The notes under the pieces: generated by a model
What the model was told of the DNA's origin: nothing
Seen by the model: the letters and a program-made list of their open reading frames with translations, nothing else
The model's database searches: none
Part shown: piece by piece, positions 40,799 through 62,927 of the stretch
How positions within the stretch are numbered: position 1 is the first letter of the stretch
Layout of the letters: each line of letters starts with the position of its first letter
Position numbers and translations under genes: made by a program
Source: a virus
Taxonomy: Duplodnaviria > Heunggongvirae > Uroviricota > Caudoviricetes
IMG/VR virus record: IMGVR_UViG_3300038968_000013
Span: 49,317 to 113,316 of that record
Direction: 5' to 3' (one strand)
DNA length: 64,000 bases

Positions 40799-40872
40799 CG
40801 GAACCGAGGGGGATCGAACCCCTAACCTTTCCCGTGACAGGGGAGCGTTCTAGCCAATTGAACTACGGCTCC
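40799..40872 (-). tRNA. tRNA-Asp (GTC)
   Basis: Manual fold. Acceptor GGAGCCG/CGGTTCC, D-arm GTTC..GAAC, anticodon loop CTGTCAC and T-arm AGGGG TTCGATC CCCCT. Confidence 0.6.
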
Positions 40873-40877
40873 GTGAG

Positions 40878-40951
40878 AGTCGATACCCGGATTCGAACCG
40901 GGACCGCTAGTTTGGAAGACTAGCATGCTAACCGTTGAACACTACATCGAC
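40878..40951 (-). tRNA. tRNA-Gly (TCC), probable
   Basis: Manual fold. Acceptor GTCGATG/TATCGAC, anticodon stem CTAGT/ACTAG with loop CTTCCAA, and T-arm CCCGG TTCGAAT CCGGG. The D-stem is weak, and the 5' end overlaps the ORF 40928..41182. Confidence 0.45.
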
Positions 40952-54582: not shown

Positions 54583-54711
54583 TTACTGTCCTCCCATCCC
54601 TACGATGATGTACTTGAAGTAAGCCGCGCCCGAGATAAACCCGAGCGCGACTCCCACACCCACCGCCACCCCAAACACCACCGACCGAAAAAACGTCTTT
54701 ACGTTGTCCAT
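54583..54711 (-). CDS. small membrane peptide
   Basis: MDNVKTFFRSVVFGVAVGVGVALGFISGAAYFKYIIVGMGG. The start overlaps the SPFH gene stop codon. Confidence 0.3.
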   Translation of the reverse strand: MDNVKTFFRSVVFGVAVGVGVALGFISGAAYFKYIIVGMGGQ

Positions 54712-55796
54712 TACTGTGCCTGCTTCAAGTCGACCATGGGCATCGCGGGACCGGAGACGAGGGAGAGTTTTCCATCCCACTTCCGAATACGTTCCCACTC
54801 GACCAGTGTCGGCGTGATTGACTTGGCGAGGATTTCGTTTGCTTGTGCCTCGGCCTTGGCGCGGATCAGCTGTGCATCGGCTTGTCCTTGAGCGAGCGCC
54901 TTAGCCTGGTCACCCTCGGCTTGCTTGGCGCGCACCATGTTCTCGGCTTGGATTGCAGCCTGTGTCGCGGCGATAGCCTGGTTGACTGCCTGCATGACCT
55001 TATCGTCGACCCGCAGTCCCGAGACGAAGGCGAACGATTCCACCTTGATACCGTCCGGTGCCATACGAGTCTGCAGCTCCTTGAGCACGTTGGCCTCTAG
55101 CTCGCGGCGCCCTTCTCCGAGAATGAGCATCGTGTCCATCGTCTGGCCATAGTGGGCCACGATGTCACGAATCTGAGAGCGCATGTATGTGTGTGTGATG
55201 CGTCCGATGTCCTGGCGGAACTTCACGAAGAGCTGCGGAATCTTCTCCGGTTCCAGCGAGTAGGCCAGGAAGACGTCGGCGTTCACGAGGCTCGACTGCT
55301 TCGAGTTGAACGTGATGCTCTCGTCGCCGGGGGACTCTGGGGTATCGTCCTTGGTGAATACCTGCTGCTGCAGGAAGATCGGGAACAGATGAATCTCGGT
55401 CTTGAAGGGGTTGTACACCTGAATGCCAGTAACGGCAGTCGCGTTAGCAACGCCCTTATCTGAGCCCCAGAGGTTCACCTTGACGCCTACGTAGCCAGGC
55501 GGCACCCGTGTATATCCACAGCCGCTACCTGTCAGCAGAAACGCGGACAGCGCCAGCGGCAGCAGCACGGCGGGGAACGATACCTTACCCACGTTCTCGG
55601 TGAGCCAGGCGAATCCCATGTAGAGTAGCGTCGCGGCCAGCATGAAATCGGCCAGACACACGAGCAGCCCAAAGATAGCGAGGAACGTGCTCTTCGCGGA
55701 CCACATTTCGATCCCGAGCGTCCACACCCCCACGACCACGAGTAGCGCGCAGATGACGCTACCTACGACTTGAACGAGAAACCGCAATCCACTCAT
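54711..55796 (-). CDS. SPFH/band-7 (flotillin/HflK-like) membrane protein
   Basis: N-terminal TM helices followed by an SPFH-like core, then an Ala/Gln-rich coiled-coil tail (AQAENMVRAKQAEGDQAKALAQGQADAQLIRAKAEAQA). Confidence 0.65.
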   Translation of the reverse strand: MSGLRFLVQVVGSVICALLVVVGVWTLGIEMWSAKSTFLAIFGLLVCLADFMLAATLLYMGFAWLTENVGKVSFPAVLLPLALSAFLLTGSGCGYTRVPPGYVGVKVNLWGSDKGVANATAVTGIQVYNPFKTEIHLFPIFLQQQVFTKDDTPESPGDESITFNSKQSSLVNADVFLAYSLEPEKIPQLFVKFRQDIGRITHTYMRSQIRDIVAHYGQTMDTMLILGEGRRELEANVLKELQTRMAPDGIKVESFAFVSGLRVDDKVMQAVNQAIAATQAAIQAENMVRAKQAEGDQAKALAQGQADAQLIRAKAEAQANEILAKSITPTLVEWERIRKWDGKLSLVSGPAMPMVDLKQAQ

Positions 55797-55822
55797 ACCA
55801 TCCTCCCCTTATTGTACTCGGT

Positions 55823-57544
55823 TTACTTAGCCTGCATTCGATACCGCAACTCCGACTCGTGCTGACTTCTCAGCGCGGTAAGGACTTGCGCAGAGTCGAT
55901 TGGAGTGTATAGCTCCCGAACCATGGCGACTCTTTCGTCCCAGCTGCGACTACGAAACGCCTCTGGCTTTTCGTACCATTCTTCGGGCACGTCGAAATCG
56001 CTAGCATTCGCGAGTACCGTATCGATAGTGTTTTTGATTGAACGTCCGGTGAAGTGTTCACTTTGCTTCCTGAAATCCTCGCACTCCATCCCGAGGTCGA
56101 GCCACGTATCCGCCATGTCAAAAGCGGGAGCCTTGTGCTTCGTCTGCGCCCTACGTGGACGGGACAGTGGCTCGTATCTCGTTGATGGAATCTTGACGAT
56201 ACCCTGTTTGGTGGCTTTGCGCAAGAGGAGCGCGATCAGATCCGCGTAATCCTCTGGCGTCTCCGGTCCCATGACTGGAAAGCGCGCGACGAATCGCTGA
56301 CGGAGAGCCGCGTCGGTGGCGGTCGGAGCATTCGTGGCTGCAATTGTGATGTATGAGCCCGAATAGGCTGAACCGACACCAGAGAAGAAATCCATCAGCC
56401 CCTTGAGAATGTCACGATCGCCGCCACCCATGCCGGGAGAGGAACGATCGCCACCCGCGAAGAGCAGATCCACGTCGTCGAGACACATGATCGAGAGACG
56501 ACCCGGATCTCTCAGGTCGTTCAGTAGATCATTTAGAAGCGTAGCTGTTTTGCCATACCATTCCGACTTCACGTCCGATGCACCCAGCGACTTGAAGTAG
56601 GTTGGCATACCGATTTGGTCAGCGCGACGCTGTAGCAGCGTCATCGCCATCCTCATGATACTGCTTTTACCAGTGCCCGGAGGTCCGTCCAGGAGGATGC
56701 TTTCGAGAATACCCCCCATTTCACAAAATGGATTCTTCCCGAGCTGTGGGTCGTAGCACGCGAGACGATCCATTTGCCGCCTGAGCTGTAGTACCGCAGC
56801 GTCGTTGCCGACGATCTCTTCCGGTTGAACCGGGACAAAGGAAACACTTGTAGCATCTTTTGCTTTCTCTACCGTTGTTCCCGTGATGGTGAACTTCTGG
56901 TATCGGAAGGTGACTTGATCGAGAGACGATCCGAGTGTCTTATGAGCACGGGCTTTAATCCGAGCTTGTTCAGCAACCCAGCTCCAGTAGTCGCGAGAAA
57001 TACTAAGCTCGTCGCCAACGATATGGACGATAGGATTGCCGTGCTGATCTTTTGCTTGAATGGCATCGATGTACCGTGCAAGGCAAAGCCCGAGGTCGCC
57101 GTCGATAGATCCACGGATATCTAGCTTCAGGATGCTTGTGTCGAGAGTTGCGAATTGACCTTCCCGACGTCGCAGCAGGCGAGCCGCTTCCACTTGAATG
57201 AAGCTCGCTGCTACGAACGTCGAGTAGGCAGAAATGAATGCTGCGCGTTCTTGAATCTCCGGAGAGATAACGCCACCGCGTGCTTGAAGCTCTTTGGCAG
57301 CCTCGCGCTGCCCGGTGCGTTCCATCAGATGGTCCACGAACCAGTAGTAGAAGCACACGGCTTGCCGAATGAGGAAAACGAGAGCCATTTCCTCAGGCAG
57401 GACTCGCCAGGTCTCTTGTGGCGAGAGGTCTTTCAGAATGTCTTCGAGGTCGCGTTCACCGTCGATCTTGGAGAGCGCCCGTTCGGCGGTCGCAATCCAC
57501 TTATCGAGGTCTTCAGCCTTGATGGGGAGGGCTTCGCGTTCCAT
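55823..57544 (-). CDS. AAA+ ATPase (classic-clade AAA domain) with ~330-aa N-terminal domain of unknown function
   Basis: Walker A LLDGPPGTGKSS, Walker B IMCLDDVDLL and sensor/Arg-finger region IAATNAPTATDAALRQRF. Confidence 0.7.
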   Translation of the reverse strand: MEREALPIKAEDLDKWIATAERALSKIDGERDLEDILKDLSPQETWRVLPEEMALVFLIRQAVCFYYWFVDHLMERTGQREAAKELQARGGVISPEIQERAAFISAYSTFVAASFIQVEAARLLRRREGQFATLDTSILKLDIRGSIDGDLGLCLARYIDAIQAKDQHGNPIVHIVGDELSISRDYWSWVAEQARIKARAHKTLGSSLDQVTFRYQKFTITGTTVEKAKDATSVSFVPVQPEEIVGNDAAVLQLRRQMDRLACYDPQLGKNPFCEMGGILESILLDGPPGTGKSSIMRMAMTLLQRRADQIGMPTYFKSLGASDVKSEWYGKTATLLNDLLNDLRDPGRLSIMCLDDVDLLFAGGDRSSPGMGGGDRDILKGLMDFFSGVGSAYSGSYITIAATNAPTATDAALRQRFVARFPVMGPETPEDYADLIALLLRKATKQGIVKIPSTRYEPLSRPRRAQTKHKAPAFDMADTWLDLGMECEDFRKQSEHFTGRSIKNTIDTVLANASDFDVPEEWYEKPEAFRSRSWDERVAMVRELYTPIDSAQVLTALRSQHESELRYRMQAK

Positions 57545-57663
57545 TAGTACGCCAGGAAGTAGTACACGTTAAGACTGCACGAGCCGAGAAGTAGGAGAAG
57601 CGAGACGCCCGAGACCCACATGAGGGTCGTAAGCGCATCCCCGATGCCACGTCCGTCCATTAC
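57544..57663 (-). CDS. possible 39-aa membrane peptide
   Basis: MDGRGIGDALTTLMWVSGVSLLLLLGSCSLNVYYFLAY sits between the coiled-coil and AAA genes. The upstream part of the track ORF is antisense shadow. Confidence 0.2.
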   Translation of the reverse strand, partial: VMDGRGIGDALTTLMWVSGVSLLLLLGSCSLNVYYFLAY

Positions 57664-58772
57664 TCGTGCCGTACGCCTTCGTGAGCCTCGCGCTCGACGT
57701 CCGCAAACTCTTTGAGGAAGTCGTTGACGTGACCGGTAAGCTGTTGCAGCAGCTCCCGCGAACGCTCTGGGCTGATTGCCGCGTGCTTGAGGCGCTGTGC
57801 CGCGATTTCGAGTGCCGCTCCTGCCACCGCCACGTTGTGATCCGTGATCACTTCCACGGAACGGTTGAGCGCAGGATCGACCGCCTGGTAGCGTTCCAGC
57901 TGAGCGCGCGCACGCACTGCCGTCATGGAGTTTTCGAGCACGACGGCCAGGTTCTGCCACTTCTCCAGCAGGTTCCGACGCATGCCGTGAACCGACTCGA
58001 TGGAGAGCGCAGCTGCATCCTTCGACTTCTGCAGCGTGGGGATGGCGCGCTGAGCCTCGGTGACGATGGTAATGAATTCCATCACGTCGAGACGCACCTT
58101 CTCCAGGTCACGCTTCAGAGCTTCGAATTCGGCTTCCTTCGCGGGCCGATCCTTCTGCTCGATGGTTCCGGACTTCAGCTCCAGGTCGAGCGCATTGTAG
58201 CGCCCTTCCAGCTCTGCTCTGCGCTGTTCCGCTTGGAGTTGACGCGGGGTCGCTTCCTTGAGCTTGGACAATACGGTATCGATGCTCTTCCCGTACGACT
58301 CGACGTTGGACACGTACTCCGCTTCTACCGTCCCCAACTTCTCGATCGTCTCCTGCACGAAGGTCTCGACTTCGCGACACGCCTCTTCGACCGAGGCAGT
58401 GTCGAGCCGCGAAACACGGAGCGCCTGAGCCTTGTTCATCGCCTTGTCGGAGAACTGCCCGAGGAACGCCAGGGTCTTTTCCTTGACGCCCCGGAATTCG
58501 CCCGACCGCGCGATTTGCAGCCCGATGGCCTCGATGCGCTGAATCACGTCAGAGCACAACGCCCGAAGCTCCTGCTCCATGGCGGCGCCCTTCTCGTGTG
58601 CGTCGGCCAACTTCTGGCTACCGTGCGTGACGCGTTGCTTGCCCTGCTTGACCTCGGTGGCTTGCCGTTCCTGCTTGATGTCCAGGTCCGAAATCACCGT
58701 GTCGTTCTGCAGCGATTCGCGGATAGCTGCCCGCCCGGTACGCTGCGCCGTTTGTTCCCTCACTTGCGCCAC
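57660..58772 (-). CDS. all-helical coiled-coil protein (TelA/YaaN-like?)
   Basis: 370 aa. GTG start with a GGAGGTGG RBS. Long heptad-like Glu/Arg/Leu-rich segments. The family assignment is tentative. Confidence 0.45.
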   Translation of the reverse strand: MAQVREQTAQRTGRAAIRESLQNDTVISDLDIKQERQATEVKQGKQRVTHGSQKLADAHEKGAAMEQELRALCSDVIQRIEAIGLQIARSGEFRGVKEKTLAFLGQFSDKAMNKAQALRVSRLDTASVEEACREVETFVQETIEKLGTVEAEYVSNVESYGKSIDTVLSKLKEATPRQLQAEQRRAELEGRYNALDLELKSGTIEQKDRPAKEAEFEALKRDLEKVRLDVMEFITIVTEAQRAIPTLQKSKDAAALSIESVHGMRRNLLEKWQNLAVVLENSMTAVRARAQLERYQAVDPALNRSVEVITDHNVAVAGAALEIAAQRLKHAAISPERSRELLQQLTGHVNDFLKEFADVEREAHEGVRHE

Positions 58773-58799
58773 TGTGCCACCTCCGTTTGATAGTATGCG

Positions 58800-58925
58800 A
58801 ACATGTTGTTTGTGACCATCTTTTTACCGGTGCTCTAACACTGAGCTACTTCCACATGTGGAAGGCTGGACTTTAACCAGCGACCCCCGGTCCTTCATGA
58901 GAACAGTCAACAGTCGGCTCGCAAG
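58800..58925 (-). ncRNA. Y RNA-like permuted tRNA mimic, E1
   Basis: Reading 5' to 3' on the minus strand, in order: leader GCGAGCCGAC, anticodon-stem 3' strand ACCGG, variable loop GGGTC, T-arm GCTGG TTAAAGT CCAGC, acceptor 3' strand CTTCCAC-A, a 1-nt link, acceptor 5' strand GTGGAAG, TA, D-arm GCTC AGTGTTA GAGC, A, and anticodon-stem 5' strand CCGGT. The 7-bp acceptor and 5-bp anticodon stems are perfectly complementary between the two halves. Confidence 0.5.
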
Positions 58926-59109
58926 CCGTTAACATTGGTCCCGATGCCGTGGACACAACCCCCGGCTCTCCCGCACCAACGCGGTTGTTCTGTGTACATG
59001 TCGGGCTACACCGAATCGTGCTGCCCCGGCCGGGTCAACAGCAGAGATTCATCTGGCAGACATTTAACCAACACGGTCTAGTTTCTGAACTACATCGGGA
59101 AAAGAAAAA

Positions 59110-59246
59110 GCGAGCATGTAGCTTCTTTGAGGAGTGTATTTTTGACGGTTGCTCTACCAACTGAGCTACATTCTTGGTTGCCCTTGAATGGCTGGATTCG
59201 AACCAGCGACCCACTGTGTGTGATAACCCTCAAACGTTCGGCTCGC
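59110..59246 (-). ncRNA. Y RNA-like permuted tRNA mimic, E2
   Basis: Same order as E1. T-arm GCTGG TTCGAAT CCAGC, acceptor halves CATTCAA / AAGAATG (5 of 7 bp) joined by a GGGCAACC loop, and D-arm GCTC AGTTGGTA GAGC. Leader GCGAGC pairs with trailer GCTCGC. Confidence 0.5.
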
Positions 59247-59328
59247 GAAAAATGACCCCGAAGTCATGCTAATTATGCATGAATACTCAGCCTCGATGAG
59301 CATCGGGGAGAGAAGCTGTTTCAAAAAG

Positions 59329-59411
59329 TACCGGTGACAGGATTCGAACCTGCAAGAGTTTCCCCTACTAGTTCCTAAGACTAGCGTGTACGCCAATGCC
59401 ACCTCACCGGC
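59329..59411 (-). tRNA. tRNA-Leu (TAG), class II
   Basis: Manual fold. Acceptor GCCGGTG/CACCGGT, anticodon arm CTAGT CTTAGGA ACTAG, a 13-nt variable arm and T-arm GCAGG TTCGAAT CCTGT. Collinear with E. coli tRNA-Leu. Confidence 0.6.
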
Positions 59412-59421
59412 AAAAAGAAAG

Positions 59422-59531
59422 TGGGTAGGGGTGGAGTTGAACCACCAAGTAAGCTCTCAAGTAGGCATACTCAACTAGTATTTTCAGCCCACCATCCAGC
59501 TATTCTCTGTACAACAAATGTACACCTACCC
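59422..59531 (-). ncRNA. 110-nt tRNA-like RNA (perfect 7-bp acceptor + T-arm, ~35-nt extra internal sequence)
   Basis: 5' GGGTAGG ... GGTGG TTCAACT CCACC CCTACCC A 3'. The D-arm is a 4-6 bp palindrome (G)TGTACA..TGTACA. No canonical anticodon arm could be placed by hand. Confidence 0.35.
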
Positions 59532-59595: not shown

Positions 59596-59650
59596 GGGGC
59601 CAGGCTGGATTCGAACCAGCAGAGAGGGATGGCAAATCCCCCACGAACTG
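59596..59650 (-). ncRNA. tRNA-like 3' module (anticodon-like hairpin GGGGA TTTGCCA TCCCT + T-arm GCTGG TTCGAAT CCAGC + CTGGCCC)
   Basis: No matching 5' acceptor strand either upstream or downstream. It shares a GCTGGCAAAA submotif with E4. Confidence 0.3.
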
Positions 59651-60100
59651 AGCGGATCAAAGCGTGCAAGCTTTTGCCAGCTCAGCGACACTACCCGGTC
59701 TAGACTTCCTCAGCCCGCCGCCATTGCCAACCATGCGACTTACTGACCCCAGAAAACTAACCACGAACATAAAAGTGAAGAGCGAGCTGTCAGCTGGGTA
59801 CCCTTGATCTACTCGTACCGCCCCATTGATGCGAAGGCTTATCAGCTTCGTAGAGGGTATCACCCCAGGTGACTTGTCATCCATCTTACACCCCGGATGC
59901 ATAGGTGTGCTGCCTTCATCGGTGGACCTGACCTTTTCACTACTCAGTTAAACGTTGTTTCGAGGGCGCCTTGTCCGGTCTCCCCCTGGCTTTTTTATCA
60001 AAGTAGAGAACACTCTTCGATTGGCTCGTGGTTCTTGTCCCAGCAATCCTACCCCTCAGTGTGCTAATGAGTCTCAGATCTCAGCCGGGACCAAAACTAT

Positions 60101-60235
60101 ATACCCTGAACGTATGGGCGTCGATGCGGTTTAACGCTCTGCCATTGAGCTAACTCTGCAGGTTAGTGCAGAGCCTGGGACTCGAACCCAGATCTTTCGA
60201 TTATCATTCGAGAACACACCAACAGTCGGCTCAGG
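60101..60235 (-). ncRNA. Y RNA-like permuted tRNA mimic, E3
   Basis: Leader GTTTCACCCTGAGCCGACTGTTG..., T-arm CTGGG TTCGAGT CCCAG, acceptor 3' strand GCTCTGC-A, loop CTAACCT, acceptor 5' strand GCAGAGT, TA, D-arm GCTC AATGGCA GAGC. Head ACCCTGA pairs with tail TCAGGGT. Confidence 0.45.
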
Positions 60236-60284
60236 GTGAAACTTAGATTGTCAAAGAACAAGGTGGAGAACGAGTTACAGAAAG

Positions 60285-60365
60285 CAGGGATTAGTGGGAT
60301 TTGAACCCACATCAGCCGGTTTTTGCCAGCTTCGTCATCCAGTAGCGATAACCCTGCCTAGTTCG
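60285..60365 (-). ncRNA. tRNA-like module E4 (shared leader + T-arm GTGGG TTCAAAT CCCAC)
   Basis: Leader GAGAGCCGAAC matches those of E1-E3. The tRNA-like features are incomplete. Confidence 0.3.
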
Positions 60366-60380
60366 GCTCTCCGGATCTTT

Positions 60381-61043
60381 TTACAGCGCCACTTCGCGTG
60401 GCGTGTGAACTGACGGCATCGTAGCACCGATGGATGGCTTTGTCAAATCCTGATGCTTTGCCATCCAATCCTGCACGAACCAGAGCTGTCCACAGCCGCC
60501 GCCGATGTCGTCCTGTCCCGCAGGATCGAAGCAGCGCACCGAGTACCCGATCGTCTTCATCATGTCCATGAAGTTGGTCGCGAGGGTCCGCTGACGATGA
60601 TTCGCCGCAGCCACGCTCTCGTCCCGCTCACAGATGACGCTGATCGTTGCTTCCCACGTATCCGGGTGAAACAAGCGGCGCAGGTTGTTGACGTCCTGCC
60701 ACGATACGTTACCCGGATGCGCGCAGTAGTTGAAGAACGGGCGGCGCCCGGTGACGTTGTAGAAGCGATTGCCTTGGTACGCGATCTGCGCGAGGTTCAG
60801 CTTTGCCTTGAACGGAATGAGCTGATCGCGCTTCTCGTCGGTGCTCTCATGAACCGAGAATTGCAGCCCGATGGTAGGAATCTTCCGCGCCGCTTCCATG
60901 ATCGGGTCGTAATCGACGTCCGGAGCACTCGTGGAAATGAGCAGCGAGAAGTTCGGGTAGAGGAAGTACAGGTACTCCATCGCCCTGATCAGTTCCTTTT
61001 GGTTGAGCATTTGTTTACACCAATTGTAAGTAAGATAACCCAC
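60381..61043 (-). CDS. hypothetical protein downstream of rsr
   Basis: 220-aa ORF. No motif recognised. Confidence 0.4.
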   Translation of the reverse strand: MGYLTYNWCKQMLNQKELIRAMEYLYFLYPNFSLLISTSAPDVDYDPIMEAARKIPTIGLQFSVHESTDEKRDQLIPFKAKLNLAQIAYQGNRFYNVTGRRPFFNYCAHPGNVSWQDVNNLRRLFHPDTWEATISVICERDESVAAANHRQRTLATNFMDMMKTIGYSVRCFDPAGQDDIGGGCGQLWFVQDWMAKHQDLTKPSIGATMPSVHTPREVAL

Positions 61044-61160
61044 TACCCGGTCGGCTCACCGTATGCCGTTATGTCTGAGACGCGAACATGTAGACGCCTA
61101 GGGCTGTTTTCATTTAGGCAATGGTAACCCTAGAGCTATCGGCTCGCGCGTATCTTGTCG

Positions 61161-62777
61161 TTACAGACCCTTCGCGAACTCCGAGATTAGCTGCGGGGTG
61201 GCAGTGTCGAAGCCCACCACGTCGAGCTGACCCGGATCGTTTGGATCTGCGATGGTGAAGTTGGTCGCAGTCATGCCGACCGTTACCATCTTGCAGTCCT
61301 TCTTGTTCATGCGCGTACGGAACTGGCGCAGAGCAGTGCTCGCGTGCGTGTTCCCGGCCCAAACCTCGTTGTCCGTGATGATCACGAAGCAATCGACGTC
61401 GAGGCTATGCTGCATCGCGTACTTCATTGCGACCGCACCGTCCGTACCACCGAAGTTGGCGTCCTGAGCAGCGCGCGCAGCATCACGGAGCGACATGCCC
61501 GGATGGATACGAAGATCCTTGAAGTGATGCGCGAATCCACCGATGAAATAGTTGCTCTCGGTGTTTGCGATCACGAGCGCCATTGCTGCTGCGCCGATGC
61601 ACGGAGTCAGACCCGGCACGCCCGCGATGCTGCCGCCCGCCATCGAGCCCGAGACGTCGACTCCCAGGAAGAAGTTCTTCCCGGTCGGCTCGACCGCCTT
61701 GAACGCGAGGTAGAACGCCTCGTCGAGGGCCTTGACCACCTTCTGCGAAGGTGTCCAGGTCTTGGACATGTCGCGGGCACCACGCCCCGCCGCGTACGTC
61801 AGGTTCGCAGCCAGGATCTGAATCGGATGCACACGGCCCTTGATGATCGCGTCCTGGTTGCCCAGAAGCTTCACGATGTCCTTCTCGGCCTGCGACAGCG
61901 GCTTCAGCAGTCCGACACGCGTCATGGTCGCCAGGTTGCGGATGACCATGGTGATCCCGCCCGTCGACAGCAGCGCCTCCCAAACCTCTGGAGCGTTCAG
62001 CAGCTGCGTCGGGATGATCTCGCGCGGCAGGTTGAAATCGGTGATCAGCTGCACCGCAGTCTTCACGTCGGCCTTGGTAGCCCCCGTGATTGCCTGCATG
62101 ACACGCGCACCCTCGATCATGTCCGGACCCTTGGTGAAGTCTTCCTTCTTCAGGGCGAACTCGAAGACAGCACGGCGCATAGCATCGTCGGTCTTCGGAT
62201 GCGTCAGACGCAGGAGGTCACGATGCGACCAACCGTCACGCTGCTGGTACTTCACGACCTGCAGTGCCAGCTTGTCGACCGGCTTGGCAAGGTACCAATC
62301 ACGCACCGCGTTCTTCAGCGCACGACCCCAGCCACGATACTGGCGGGCGAAGGCGATGAAATGGAACAGATGCGTTCCAGTACGCGCGACCTTGTGCAGA
62401 TTGGCGAGCGCGTAACGCTTCACGTCGTCGCTACCCTCGGAGGCAGCGTATGCCAGTGCCAGCAGCGCCGGATCGTTCTTCGGCGCGCGACCGTCCTGCG
62501 AAATCTGGACGATCTCGTTGACGAGACGCATGCCATCCTCCAGGAGGCACGCCTTGACGGCGTTCAGGCTCTCCTTGGTGTGCTGGCGCTGGTCAGCGTA
62601 GTACGTCCCACCCTCGGTGCCGAGGATCAGGAAGCGACGCAGATGCATCCAATGCCCGGTGGCAAAAACGTAACCACCCGCATGGTTCTTCACCTGGCGC
62701 GCGTCCAGCGGCTCCGACTCCGGAACCGGCTTCGAAATCTCGTTCAGTAGATAGCTTCCCTTGCGTCCCATCGTCAT
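61161..62777 (-). CDS. rsr: Ro60/Rsr ortholog (TROVE domain + C-terminal vWA/MIDAS domain)
   Basis: GGYVFATGHWMHLRRFLILGTEGGTYYADQRQ...ISQDGRAPKNDPALLALAYAAS aligns with the N-terminus of the Ro sixty-related protein (..RFLILGSEGGTYY..RAPKND). GVDVSGSM is a MIDAS motif. Confidence 0.85.
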   Translation of the reverse strand: MTMGRKGSYLLNEISKPVPESEPLDARQVKNHAGGYVFATGHWMHLRRFLILGTEGGTYYADQRQHTKESLNAVKACLLEDGMRLVNEIVQISQDGRAPKNDPALLALAYAASEGSDDVKRYALANLHKVARTGTHLFHFIAFARQYRGWGRALKNAVRDWYLAKPVDKLALQVVKYQQRDGWSHRDLLRLTHPKTDDAMRRAVFEFALKKEDFTKGPDMIEGARVMQAITGATKADVKTAVQLITDFNLPREIIPTQLLNAPEVWEALLSTGGITMVIRNLATMTRVGLLKPLSQAEKDIVKLLGNQDAIIKGRVHPIQILAANLTYAAGRGARDMSKTWTPSQKVVKALDEAFYLAFKAVEPTGKNFFLGVDVSGSMAGGSIAGVPGLTPCIGAAAMALVIANTESNYFIGGFAHHFKDLRIHPGMSLRDAARAAQDANFGGTDGAVAMKYAMQHSLDVDCFVIITDNEVWAGNTHASTALRQFRTRMNKKDCKMVTVGMTATNFTIADPNDPGQLDVVGFDTATPQLISEFAKGL

Positions 62778-62927
62778 CCCCTCACATTCGGTTATCGGCT
62801 CACACGGTAGGTTTTAAGACACCACTTACCCGGCCCAGCCACGCTTGCGCTTTCGATTCGGCCCGTGTGCTCAGGAAACAGAGCTTATGCTATCCTGATG
62901 GTTGTGTCAAGCGGTCGCGCAGATTTT

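What the first reader, a model, noticed from the sequence alone, without database searches (positions are those of the whole stretch)
60101..60235. E3: third permuted tRNA-like module, flanked by a 7-bp head/tail helix
The T-arm and acceptor 3' strand GCTCTGC-A are followed by loop CTAACCT, the complementary acceptor 5' strand GCAGAGT and a D-arm. Head ACCCTGA and tail TCAGGGT are complementary. The leader shares GAGCCGACTGTTG with E1.
Basis: seen in the sequence. Interest (0 to 1): 0.65.

Follow-up and report, generated by a model that had tools for sequence, protein, structure and literature searches.

The report
Phage Y RNA with tRNA-like module
This 135-base stretch encodes a YrlA-type Y RNA: a small non-coding RNA shaped like a circularly permuted tRNA on a stem that binds the Ro60 (Rsr) protein, whose gene lies just upstream in the same phage genome, so it is a new example of a class described in 2014 rather than a new kind of element.

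Summary
E3 has a T arm, a closed 7-8 bp acceptor-like hairpin, U8-A9, a D arm, an extra hairpin, a 10-bp inner stem and an outer terminal helix.

It lies 924 nt downstream of a Ro60/Rsr gene (61161..62777) on the same strand, in an uncultured tailed-phage genome. This is the published architecture of YrlA RNAs (Chen 2014; Wang 2018), which those authors describe as circularly permuted tRNAs with a closed acceptor stem.

A covariance model built only from other phages' YrlAs, none from this phage, scores E3 at 67.9 bits (E about 1e-18). It matches full length, with every modelled pair canonical. The helices covary across 100 phage sequences.

Rfam's YrlA model scores E3 below its threshold. It also scores below threshold the YrlA-type matches next to Ro in two cultured actinophages.

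E3 is one of at least six or seven Ro-stem RNAs in a 2.4-kb array that also holds a tRNA-Leu.

Verdict: a real feature and a new member of a known kind. Expression and Rsr binding are inferred, not shown.

The parts
60103..60237 (-). E3: complete YrlA-type Y RNA gene, about 135 nt from the first to the last paired base of the terminal helix
   Evidence: Sequence read. RNAfold z = -3.79. Independent covariance model R2 gives 67.9 bits, E 1e-18, full-length match over 60235..60105.
60226..60237 (-). Ro-binding helix, 5' strand: ACCCUGAGC, bulged C 60228, G 60227, A 60226. It contains GCCGACUG, a one-mismatch version of the GNCGAAN0-1G motif.
   Evidence: Motif definition from Chen 2014. Covariation.
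60103..60112 (-). Ro-binding helix, 3' strand: C-GUUCAGGGU. C60112 pairs with G60227, and 60111..60103 pair with 60229..60237.
   Evidence: Column pairs 2-8/159-165 and 10/158.
60215..60224 (-). Inner stem (stem 2), 5' strand UGUUGGUGUG. It occupies the position of the YrlA 'anticodon stem'.
   Evidence: RNAfold. The same stem topology appears in most of 17 phage YrlAs folded one by one.
60119..60128 (-). Inner stem (stem 2), 3' strand CGCAUCGACG
   Evidence: In the L002 copy the stem keeps pairing through G-C to G-U and G-U to A-U changes.
60197..60211 (-). 'V' hairpin UCGA-AUGAUAA-UCGA: 4-bp stem with a 7-nt loop that resembles an anticodon loop
   Evidence: Rfam's tRNA model aligns it as an anticodon arm at a sub-threshold 22.2 bits.
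60192..60196 (-). 5-nt variable-loop equivalent AAGAU. It carries G46 and U48 equivalents, and U48 can form the Levitt pair with A15.
   Evidence: Sequence. The Levitt pair covaries, C:G in 13 and U:A in 4 sequences. Tertiary-contact definitions from Wang 2018.
60175..60191 (-). T arm CUGGG-UUCGAGU-CCCAG
   Evidence: The stem covaries.
60153..60174 (-). Closed acceptor-like stem-loop (AS): GCUCUGC-A-CUAACCU-GCAGAGU. Seven tRNA-like pairs plus an A-U closing pair.
   Evidence: All six modelled AS pairs covary across phages. AS length is 8 contiguous pairs.
60136..60152 (-). U8-A9 linker and D arm GCUC-AAUGGCA-GAGC
61161..62777 (-). rsr: Ro60 ortholog (538 aa), the presumed protein partner, 924 nt upstream of E3 on the same strand
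   Evidence: Pfam TROVE 2e-42 and vWA_Ro60 8.5e-49. NCBIfam Rsr 558 bits. PDB 2nvo (D. radiodurans Rsr) E 1e-129 and 1yvp (Xenopus Ro60) 4e-98.
58796..58923 (-). E1: sister YrlA-type unit of the same array
   Evidence: R2 76.2 bits. Rfam YrlA 40.4 bits.
59109..59247 (-). E2: sister YrlA-type unit of the same array
   Evidence: R2 72.5 bits. Rfam YrlA 35.9 bits.
60265..60372 (-). U3: neighbouring Ro-stem unit (GGAGAGC[C]GA ... UCGUUCUCC) that encloses a non-permuted cloverleaf
   Evidence: R2 23.2 bits. RNAfold z = -3.54.
61081..61148 (-). U1: short Ro-stem hairpin RNA (YrlB-like) directly after the rsr stop codon
   Evidence: R2 21.4 bits.
59328..59411 (-). Genuine tRNA-Leu(UAG) embedded in the array
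   Evidence: ARAGORN. Rfam tRNA 45.1 bits.

Best explanation
E3 is a gene for a YrlA-class Y RNA of an uncultured tailed phage.

Proposed mechanism:
1. It is transcribed on the minus strand, probably as part of a long transcript that runs from rsr, or from a promoter-like site at 60446..60418, through an array of Ro-stem RNAs and a tRNA-Leu. It is then trimmed to about 135 nt.
2. Its 5' and 3' ends pair into a helix with a bulged C (ACCCUGAGC[C]G / CGUUCAGGGU). The phage Ro60 ortholog Rsr binds this helix, mainly through the 5' strand GAGCCGA.
3. The rest of the RNA folds into a tRNA-shaped module: T arm, closed acceptor stem, D arm, 5-nt variable loop, and a Levitt pair A15:U48.
4. By analogy with studied Y RNAs, that module is the effector end. 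It would gate access to the Rsr ring and tether Rsr to a tRNA-recognising or RNA-degrading partner.

Shown here: the anatomy, the linkage to rsr, family membership by an independent covariance model, and covariation of the helices. Inferred: transcription, processing, Rsr binding and the tethering role.
For: Gene context: a Ro60/Rsr gene lies 924 nt upstream on the same strand. This meets the published criterion of within 4 kb and on the same strand.

Architecture matches YrlA as published:
- 5' motif, V hairpin, T arm, closed AS, UA, D arm.
- The tertiary-contact nucleotides are in place: U8, A9, A14, A15:U48, G18 G19, A21, G46, and the UUCGA T loop.

Thermodynamics: the minimum-energy fold gives this architecture with z = -3.79.

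Independent model: R2 was built from 20 YrlA-type sequences of other phages, three of them from the cultured phages Koguma and Cashline and none from this phage or its relatives. It scores E3 at 67.9 bits, E about 1e-18, full length, with no non-canonical pair.

Covariation:
- In 17 sequences, 98.5% of cells are paired against 28-47% when partners are slid, and 0 of 500 shuffles reach the observed values.
- In 100 distinct phage sequences, 94.8% of cells are paired, and 94.6% in the Ro helix.
- One Ro-helix pair alternates A-U (8), G-C (7) and G-U (2).

Strand bias: all 109 model hits in 82 phage rsr loci lie on the rsr strand.

Nearest relative (L002, Rsr 89% identical): its E3 copy has an entirely different acceptor-stem sequence that still pairs, and a compensatory C-G to G-C change in the T stem.

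Coding potential: no gene is called in the 1.6-kb array on identical public contigs, and only ORFs under 60 aa overlap E3.
Against: - There are no expression, processing or binding data of any kind.
- Rfam RF02553 scores E3 at only 26.5 bits against a gathering score of 69. This is weak counter-evidence, because the model scores the YrlA-type matches in Koguma and Cashline at 36-42 bits.
- The 5' motif departs from GNCGAAN0-1G at one position (GCCGACUG).
- E3 has GUUCUC where most YrlAs have GGUUAUC.
- The only ortholog found (L002) looks decayed. The 3' strand of its Ro helix is missing or displaced by an inserted ORF fragment, and one D-stem pair is broken. This particular unit may therefore be dispensable.
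- The outer three pairs in my seed alignments were chosen by pairing, which inflates their covariation counts.
- The alignment of 100 sequences was fitted to the model's structure.
Confidence: 0.87

Rival explanations
1. E3 is a decaying or redundant copy in a fast-turnover array. It is a YrlA by descent but is no longer bound by Rsr or no longer functional.
For: - The array is in flux between close relatives. L002 lacks the 209-aa ORF and the units between E3 and the tRNA-Leu region. Its E3 copy has a defective Ro-helix 3' strand and a broken D-stem pair.
- E3 scores lowest of the three window YrlAs in every model.
- E3 departs from the GGUUAUC and GNCGAA consensus.
Against: - In the window copy every modelled pair is canonical and all tertiary-contact positions are intact.
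- The fold is far better than shuffles.
- Three independent public contigs carry it unchanged.
Confidence: 0.08
2. E3 is a remnant of two adjacent tRNA genes, the T arm and 3' end of one plus the 5' end and D arm of the next. Alternatively it is a genuinely permuted tRNA gene that is processed into a decoding tRNA, as in Cyanidioschyzon merolae.
For: - The models also hit a real tandem tRNA junction at 40844..40902, at 25-28 bits.
- Rfam's tRNA model gives 22.2 bits to 60167..60235 and reads the hairpin loop AUGAUAA as an anticodon loop, anticodon GAU.
Against: - In tandem tRNAs the two acceptor strands are not complementary. Here they form a perfect 7-8 bp hairpin.
- The element is enclosed by a conserved Ro-type helix and sits next to rsr.
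- ARAGORN calls no tRNA there, and the tRNA score is below the gathering score of 29.
- The anticodon-like loop is not conserved in the L002 copy, where it is UUGAAC, 6 nt.
- From general knowledge, permuted-tRNA maturation needs a bulge-helix-bulge motif and the archaeal/eukaryal splicing endonuclease. None is evident here.
Confidence: 0.02
3. E3 is a cis-acting structure of a long mRNA, for example a stabiliser, processing signal or Rsr-responsive regulator of the downstream ORF370/AAA-ATPase/SPFH genes. In this reading it is not a free small RNA.
For: - No intrinsic terminator was found on the minus strand between rsr and ORF370.
- E1 ends about 20 nt before the ORF370 start.
- The rsr 5' UTR itself carries a GAGCCGA motif beside the ribosome-binding site, which hints at Rsr-mRNA interactions.
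Against: - E3 is 1.3 kb from the next ORF, with several other units and a tRNA in between.
- Characterised Y RNAs are routinely excised from polycistronic precursors, so co-transcription does not argue against a free RNA.
- The self-contained terminal helix is repeated at every unit. That is what a set of excised RNAs would look like.
Confidence: 0.03

Closest known systems
YrlA RNAs (Rfam RF02553; S. Typhimurium, M. smegmatis, mycobacteriophages; Chen et al. 2014, Wang et al. 2018, PDB 6cu1)
   Same: - Encoded near rsr on the same strand.
- 5' GNCGA-type Ro motif.
- Same order: V hairpin, T arm, closed acceptor stem, UA, D arm.
- Levitt pair and base-triple nucleotides are present.
- A 7-bp acceptor stem, as in M. 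smegmatis YrlA.
- A model that includes the Koguma and Cashline matches scores E3 at 67.9 bits.
   Different: - Scores below Rfam's gathering threshold, 26.5 against 69.
- GUUCUC instead of GGUUAUC.
- One mismatch to GNCGAAN0-1G.
- The 3' strand of the Ro helix is recognisable and covaries, whereas the papers state that only the 5' strand is conserved in bacteria.
- It sits in an array of at least six or seven Ro-stem RNAs.
Deinococcus radiodurans Yrn1/Yrn2
   Same: - Ro-binding helix with both strands retained.
- Encoded beside rsr.
- Co-transcribed with a tRNA in a polycistronic precursor.
- Yrn1 has a T arm.
   Different: Yrn1's tRNA-like part is in the other orientation and lacks a convincing D arm. 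E3 is the YrlA orientation. The neighbouring unit U3 (60372..60265), not E3, resembles the Yrn1 arrangement.
Metazoan Y RNAs (hY1-5, Xenopus Y3)
   Same: A terminal helix formed by the 5' and 3' ends, with a bulged C in G-N-N-C-[C]-G-A paired to a Y-G-N-N-C 3' strand. E3 has GAGC[C]GA/ACGUUC against GGUC[C]GA/UUGACC.
   Different: - Metazoan Y RNAs have no tRNA-like module.
- They have a pyrimidine-rich internal loop and a Pol III oligo-U end.
- In E3 the A after the bulge faces an A rather than a U.
- No Rfam Y_RNA match appeared in the permissive scan.
Circularly permuted tRNA genes (Cyanidioschyzon merolae) and two-piece tmRNA
   Same: The 3' half of the tRNA-like fold is encoded upstream of the 5' half.
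   Different: Those yield a functional acceptor end after processing. E3's acceptor stem is closed by a loop, no bulge-helix-bulge or tag-coding features were seen on reading the sequence, and ARAGORN finds neither tRNA nor tmRNA there.

Membership tests
YrlA (bacterial/phage tRNA-like Y RNA) | Encoded within about 4 kb of a Ro60/Rsr (TROVE) gene, on the same strand | tested here: met
   The rsr stop codon is at 61161 and the E3 5' end at 60237, both on the minus strand, 924 nt apart. Criterion from Chen 2014.
YrlA (bacterial/phage tRNA-like Y RNA) | GNCGAAN0-1G motif near the 5' end (putative Ro contact) | tested here: inconclusive
   E3 has GCCGACUG, that is GNCGA followed by C instead of A. 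The same C occurs in E1 and in L108, and 11 of 17 aligned phage YrlAs have A there.
YrlA (bacterial/phage tRNA-like Y RNA) | Near-invariant T arm and D arm, with a closed acceptor-like stem-loop between them and a UA linker | tested here: met
   CUGGG-UUCGAGU-CCCAG, then GCUCUGC-A-CUAACCU-GCAGAGU, UA, and GCUC-AAUGGCA-GAGC. All pairs are canonical under model R2.
YrlA (bacterial/phage tRNA-like Y RNA) | Nucleotides for tRNA tertiary contacts: Levitt 15:48, U8-A14-A21, A9-U12-A23, C13-G22-G46, and G18 G19 with the T loop | tested here: met
   All are present in the sequence, including A15:U48 and G46 in the linker AAGAU (definitions). The Levitt pair covaries C:G (13) / U:A (4). The three-dimensional fold itself was not tested.
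YrlA (bacterial/phage tRNA-like Y RNA) | Reaches the gathering score of Rfam RF02553 | tested here: not met
   26.5 bits against 69. The test is uninformative here: the YrlA-type matches next to Ro in the cultured phages Koguma and Cashline reach only 36.1 and 42.2 bits.
YrlA (bacterial/phage tRNA-like Y RNA) | Significant match to a covariance model built from independent family members | tested here: met
   R2 was built from 20 sequences of other phages, three of them from the cultured phages Koguma and Cashline. It gives 67.9 bits, E 1e-18, over model positions 1-131.
YrlA (bacterial/phage tRNA-like Y RNA) | Bound and stabilised by Rsr, and carries tRNA modifications (pseudouridine 55, dihydrouridine) | not testable with these tools
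   Needs RNA from infected cells or in-vitro binding.
Y RNA in the broad sense (Ro60-binding RNAs) | Terminal helix formed from the 5' and 3' ends, carrying the conserved bulged-C Ro site | tested here: met
   ACCCUGAGC[C]G / CGUUCAGGGU. It has 9 contiguous pairs against a shuffled-flank mean of 4.0. The helix is 94.6-98.5% paired with covariation across phage sequences.
Canonical tRNA (RF00005) | Cloverleaf with an open acceptor end and an anticodon arm, detected by tRNA finders | tested here: not met
   ARAGORN calls nothing there. Rfam's tRNA model gives 22.2 bits against a gathering score of 29, with mismatched acceptor pairs.
Permuted tRNA gene (C. merolae type) | The halves re-join into a decoding tRNA, with a bulge-helix-bulge processing motif and an intact anticodon arm | tested here: not met
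   The termini form a Ro-type helix rather than a bulge-helix-bulge. The anticodon-like hairpin has a 4-bp stem and is not conserved in the L002 copy. Processing itself could not be tested.

The most novel reading that the evidence does not exclude
The rsr locus of this phage may be a toolkit of at least six or seven Ro-stem RNAs that each present a different tRNA mimic.
- E1-E3 are permuted YrlA-type modules.
- U3 is a non-permuted cloverleaf.
- Further tRNA-like RNAs and a real tRNA-Leu lie in the same array.

E3 is the unit closest to a full tRNA. It has a 7-bp acceptor stem with a discriminator-like A and an encoded C, a 5-nt variable loop, and an anticodon-arm-like hairpin (loop AU-GAU-AA). 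RNase P could cleave it and a CCA tail could be added, as happens to M. smegmatis YrlA. In this reading the set serves the phage as Rsr-tethered decoys or adaptors for host enzymes that recognise tRNA, such as anticodon nucleases, modification enzymes and RNA-repair enzymes. That would be a role beyond general RNA decay.
Probability: 0.12. Interest if true: 0.65.

Novelty: new member of a known kind. Interest (0 to 1): 0.3.

Why it matters
The job of the tRNA-like module of YrlA RNAs is still unknown. The published work says its interaction partner has not been identified.

E3 adds nothing categorically new, but the locus is useful comparative material:
- It lies in a phage with no close cultured relative. 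The closest large terminase subunit (TerL) among sequenced phages is 33% identical.
- It carries three YrlA-type RNAs and several other Ro-stem RNAs behind one Rsr gene.
- Across 80 IMG/VR phage rsr loci such arrays are common, with 1 to 6 model hits per locus.
- In phages both strands of the Ro helix are conserved. This sharpens the model of what Rsr recognises.

These points would help to build a better covariance model than Rfam's, which scores below threshold even the YrlA-type matches in two cultured actinophages. They would also help to choose phage systems in which the function of Ro/Y RNPs can be tested.

Tried and rejected
Searches that found nothing useful:
- Close relatives by exact peptide or DNA patterns: Rsr peptides in IMG/VR and GTDB genomes found nothing.
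- The pattern GAGCCGANNGTTN{4,6}GTTCTC in IMG/VR gave 41 hits, all chance, none with a T or D arm.
- GAGCCGACNGTTGNTGTGTTCTC in JGI metagenomes gave one chance hit inside a coding region.
- Only Logan and ENA contigs found through the protein look-up were informative.

Tests that were not usable:
- Rfam at gathering threshold shows only the three tRNAs. I rejected it as a membership test after seeing that it scores below threshold the YrlA-type matches in two cultured actinophages.
- A naive test for a 5-bp partner of the Ro motif did not beat shuffles. On average 73% of shuffles reached the observed value. I replaced it with contiguous-helix length and with covariance models.
- Stem 2 could not be put into the models, because MAFFT misaligns it by about 2 columns between sequences. 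It rests on single-sequence folds and on the L002 comparison.

Ideas followed and left as leads:
- That the 'V' hairpin is a conserved anticodon-arm mimic. About ten or more phage YrlAs have 7-nt YU-NNN-AA loops, but loop sizes range from 3 to 9 nt and the L002 copy of E3 differs.

Readings considered and rejected:
- Tandem-tRNA junction, genuine or permuted tRNA, tmRNA, and protein-coding.

Full report
**1. The observation**

Read on the minus strand, 60237..60103 is:

ACCCUGAGCCGACUGUUGGUGUGUUCUCGAAUGAUAAUCGAAAGAUCUGGGUUCGAGUCCCAGGCUCUGCACUAACCUGCAGAGUUAGCUCAAUGGCAGAGCGUUAAACCGCAUCGACGCCCAUACGUUCAGGGU.

- T arm CUGGG/UUCGAGU/CCCAG.
- Acceptor 3' strand GCUCUGC plus A, loop CUAACCU, acceptor 5' strand GCAGAGU.
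- UA, then the D arm GCUC/AAUGGCA/GAGC.
- Head ACCCUGA and tail UCAGGGU.
- The 13-mer GAGCCGACUGUUG, which is shared exactly with E1 (58920..58908) and occurs nowhere else in the window.

The stated coordinates are right to within two bases, but the strand is minus.

RNAfold returns exactly this architecture at -51.5 kcal/mol. The z-score is -3.79 and 0 of 200 shuffles fold as well.

It has nine contiguous pairs (ACCCUGAGC/GUUCAGGGU), then a bulged C (60228), then G60227-C60112. With the 3' flank shuffled, the best helix averages 4.0 pairs and reaches nine in 1% of trials.

No ORF of 60 aa or more overlaps it.

**2. Context**

The window is a tailed-phage genome. PHROGs finds a portal protein, large terminase, major head protein and head protease. 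The terminase is at most 33% identical to that of any sequenced phage.

The 538-aa ORF at 61161..62777 (minus) is a Ro60/Rsr ortholog:
- Pfam TROVE and vWA_Ro60.
- NCBIfam Rsr, 558 bits.
- D. radiodurans Rsr 2nvo, E 1e-129, and Xenopus Ro60 1yvp, E 4e-98.

E3 starts 924 nt downstream of its stop codon on the same strand.

The stretch between rsr and the next sizeable gene (ORF370, 58772..57660) is about 2.4 kb. It holds only one called ORF, of 209 aa.

GAGCCGA occurs nine times on the minus strand of the whole window. Eight of these lie between 58920 and 62801.

Pairing each GAGCCGA with a downstream AYGYUC gives a series of self-contained units, each closed by the same helix:
- U1, 61148..61081.
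- U2, starting near 61060 and truncated.
- U3, 60372..60265.
- E3.
- U5, 60033..59759, with the variant motif GAGCCAA.
- E2, 59247..59109.
- E1, 58923..58796.

A genuine tRNA-Leu (59411..59328) and two further tRNA-like folds lie between the units.

**3. What it is**

Chen et al. 2014 defined YrlA RNAs by these features:
- Encoded within 4 kb of rsr on the same strand.
- A 5' GNCGAAN0-1G motif resembling the GGUCCGA contacted by Xenopus Ro60.
- A central module of V hairpin, T arm, closed 'acceptor' stem-loop and D arm.

Wang et al. [quoted passage not shown]

E3 has all of these parts in the same order. It also carries the nucleotides needed for the tRNA tertiary contacts (definitions):
- U8, A9, A14 and A21.
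- A15 with U48, the U just before the T stem.
- G18 and G19.
- G46 within the 5-nt linker AAGAU.
- The UUCGA T loop.

In a permissive Rfam scan the only families that match here are YrlA and, more weakly, tRNA. YrlA scores 26.5 bits for E3, 40.4 for E1 and 35.9 for E2. tRNA scores 22.2 bits.

All the YrlA scores are below the gathering score of 69. That threshold is not informative for phages. The YrlA-type matches next to Ro in Mycobacterium phage Koguma and Gordonia phage Cashline reach only 36.1 and 42.2 bits.

**4. Independent test of membership**

I fetched 80 of 259 IMG/VR loci that encode an Rsr relative. I also fetched the two nearest relatives of this phage: L002 (Rsr 89% identical) and L001 (65% identical).

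Model R2 was built from 20 YrlA-type sequences of other phages. Three came from the cultured phages Koguma (one) and Cashline (two), and none came from the window, L001 or L002. Its scores over the 64-kb window were:
- E3: 67.9 bits, E about 1e-18, full length, no non-canonical pair.
- E1: 76.2 bits. E2: 72.5 bits.
- The short or divergent units U3, U1 and U2: 18.7 to 23.2 bits.

The calibration was shortened, so these E-values are rough.

An earlier model, R1, which did include E1-E3, found 109 hits in the 82 loci. All 109 were on the rsr strand, with one to six hits per locus in 45 loci. Arrays of Ro-stem RNAs are therefore common in phages. This window, with six model hits plus U5, is at the upper end.

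**5. Structure support**

RNAalifold on 17 trimmed units predicted the terminal helix, T arm, acceptor stem and D arm without guidance.

Pair counts on that alignment:
- 98.5% of cells form standard pairs, against 28-47% when the 3' partners are slid by 1-3 columns.
- 15 of 24 pairs change on both sides.
- No shuffle out of 500 reaches any of the observed measures.
- Within the Ro helix, the second variable position is A-U in 8 sequences, G-C in 7 and G-U in 2.
- The pair after the bulge is G-U in 15 and G-C in 2, one of which is E3.
- The Levitt pair is C:G in 13 and U:A in 4, one of which is E3.

On 100 distinct phage sequences aligned to the model, 94.8% of cells pair, and 94.6% in the Ro helix.

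Two caveats apply. I chose the ends of the 17 seed sequences by their pairing, which inflates the outer three pairs. The 100-sequence alignment is fitted to the model.

Folded one at a time, most of the 17 sequences give the same topology as E3: terminal helix, internal loop, a second stem of 8-10 bp, and a multiloop with four hairpins.

**6.

It does.

E3 has G-A-G-C-[C]-G-A paired with A-C-G-U-U-C. The pairs are G-C, A-U, G-U, C-G, bulged C, G-C, and then A facing A. Other phage YrlAs read GGGC[C]GA/UUGUCC or GAGC[C]GA/UUGUUC. Vertebrate Y RNAs have GGUC[C]GA/UUGACC. That 3'-strand pairing is quoted from my own knowledge of the Xenopus Y3 structure, and the 5' motif is.

The published view is that only the 5' strand is conserved in bacteria. 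In these phage sequences both strands are recognisable.

**7. Likely mechanism**

Shown here: the anatomy, the linkage to rsr, family membership, and covariation of the helices.

Inferred from the studied systems:
- Transcription with rsr or from a nearby promoter. A sigma-70-like site lies at 60446..60418, and no minus-strand terminator was found in the array.
- Excision from a polycistronic precursor. D. radiodurans Yrn1 and Yrn2 are excised together with tRNA-Asp, and here the companion is tRNA-Leu.
- Binding of Rsr to the bulged helix.
- Use of the tRNA-shaped end to gate the Rsr ring or to tether it to a partner. That partner is PNPase in D. radiodurans and Salmonella, and unknown for the tRNA-like domain itself.

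E3's acceptor stem has seven tRNA-like pairs, then A, then C. M. smegmatis YrlA also has a 7-bp stem, is cut by RNase P and gains CA, so the same could happen to E3. Stems of 7-8 pairs are the commonest length among phage YrlAs, so this does not set E3 apart.

**8. Evidence that tempers the conclusion**

Nothing is known about expression.

The only ortholog, in L002, keeps the T arm and has a wholly different but still pairing acceptor stem. However, the 3' strand of its Ro helix is missing or displaced by an inserted ORF fragment, and one D-stem pair is broken. It scores 54.8 bits. The array clearly gains and loses units between close relatives, so any one unit may be dispensable.

**9. Verdict**

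It is a new, divergent member of a known kind: phage-encoded YrlA-type Y RNAs.

Interest is modest for E3 itself. The locus as a whole is a useful, unusually rich example. It combines several kinds of tRNA mimic on Ro stems, a Ro helix conserved on both strands, and a Ro motif in the rsr leader.

Noticed in passing
window 60265-60372 (minus): Unit U3 has a Ro-type terminal helix (GGAGAGC[C]GA ... UCGUUCUCC). It encloses a non-permuted cloverleaf: a GCAGGG/CCCUGC 'acceptor', two hairpins, and the T arm GUGGGUUCAAAUCCCAC. RNAfold z = -3.54. This resembles the D. radiodurans Yrn1 orientation, right beside YrlA-type units.
   Followed up: partly
window 59759-60033 (minus): Unit U5 is about 270 nt and is closed by CACGAGCCAA ... 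AUGUUCGUG, a GAGCCAA variant of the Ro motif. Its interior matches no model, and its fold is no better than shuffles (z = -1.2). The region is absent from the relative L002.
   Followed up: partly
window 59596-59752 (minus): A tRNA-like fold with an 8-bp acceptor stem (GGGGUCAG/CUGGCCCC), the T arm CUGGUUCGAAUCCAG, a long central arm and a variable-arm-like hairpin. It has no Ro motif. ARAGORN and Rfam do not call it. Its nature is unknown.
   Followed up: partly
window 59420-59531 (minus), just upstream of tRNA-Leu: A second uncalled tRNA-like RNA: acceptor GGGUAGG/CCUACCC, T arm GGUGGUUCAACUCCACC, then A. RNAfold z = -2.7. The surrounding 260 nt is 95% identical in L002, the best-conserved part of the array.
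   Followed up: partly
window 60381-61010 (minus): The product of a 209-aa ORF inside the array weakly resembles the C-terminal half of the RlmN/Cfr radical-SAM RNA methyltransferases (E 2e-7, far below the cutoffs). It interrupts unit U2 (5' end near 61060). L002 lacks the ORF and has U2 intact, so it looks like an insertion.
   Followed up: partly
window 62795-62801 and 62880-62910 (minus); L001 5850-6000; L002 1-60: The rsr 5' UTR carries the Ro 5'-strand motif GAGCCGA just before the ribosome-binding site. The same is true in both relatives (GGGCCGAAAAGGA and GAGCUGAA). A promoter-like TTGACA-17-CATAAG is conserved between the window and L001. This may indicate autoregulation of rsr by its own product.
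   Followed up: partly
L048-L127, L128, L129 (phage rsr loci): In phage Y RNAs both strands of the Ro helix are conserved and covary (GNNC[C]GR with YYGNNC). The literature states that only the 5' strand is conserved in bacteria. Arrays of 2 to 6 Ro-stem RNAs per phage locus are common, always on the rsr strand. In Koguma the YrlA match (L128 4201-4342) overlaps two annotated hypothetical CDSs.
   Followed up: yes
window 60197-60211 (minus) and the equivalent hairpin in L053, L057, L066, L086, L106, L112, L117, L118: The 'V' hairpin of many phage YrlAs has a 7-nt loop of the form YU-NNN-AA followed by an AGGUC-like 5-nt linker. That looks like an anticodon arm plus a class I variable loop rather than a class II variable arm. 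E3 has AU-GAU-AA plus AAGAU. This is not universal (loop sizes 3-9 nt) and is not kept in the L002 copy of E3.
   Followed up: partly
window 40844-40902 (minus): Both covariance models give 25-28 bits to the junction of the tandem tRNA-Gly and tRNA-Asp genes (T arm of one, D arm of the next). This is the expected false-positive type for YrlA searches.
   Followed up: yes
window 54711-58772 (minus); L001 9624-10862: Downstream of the array lie a 370-aa ORF with no family match, an AAA ATPase (573 aa) and an SPFH/Band-7 protein (361 aa). An SPFH protein also follows rsr in the 65%-identical relative L001. It may be a conserved functional neighbour of the Ro/Y RNA module.
   Followed up: no
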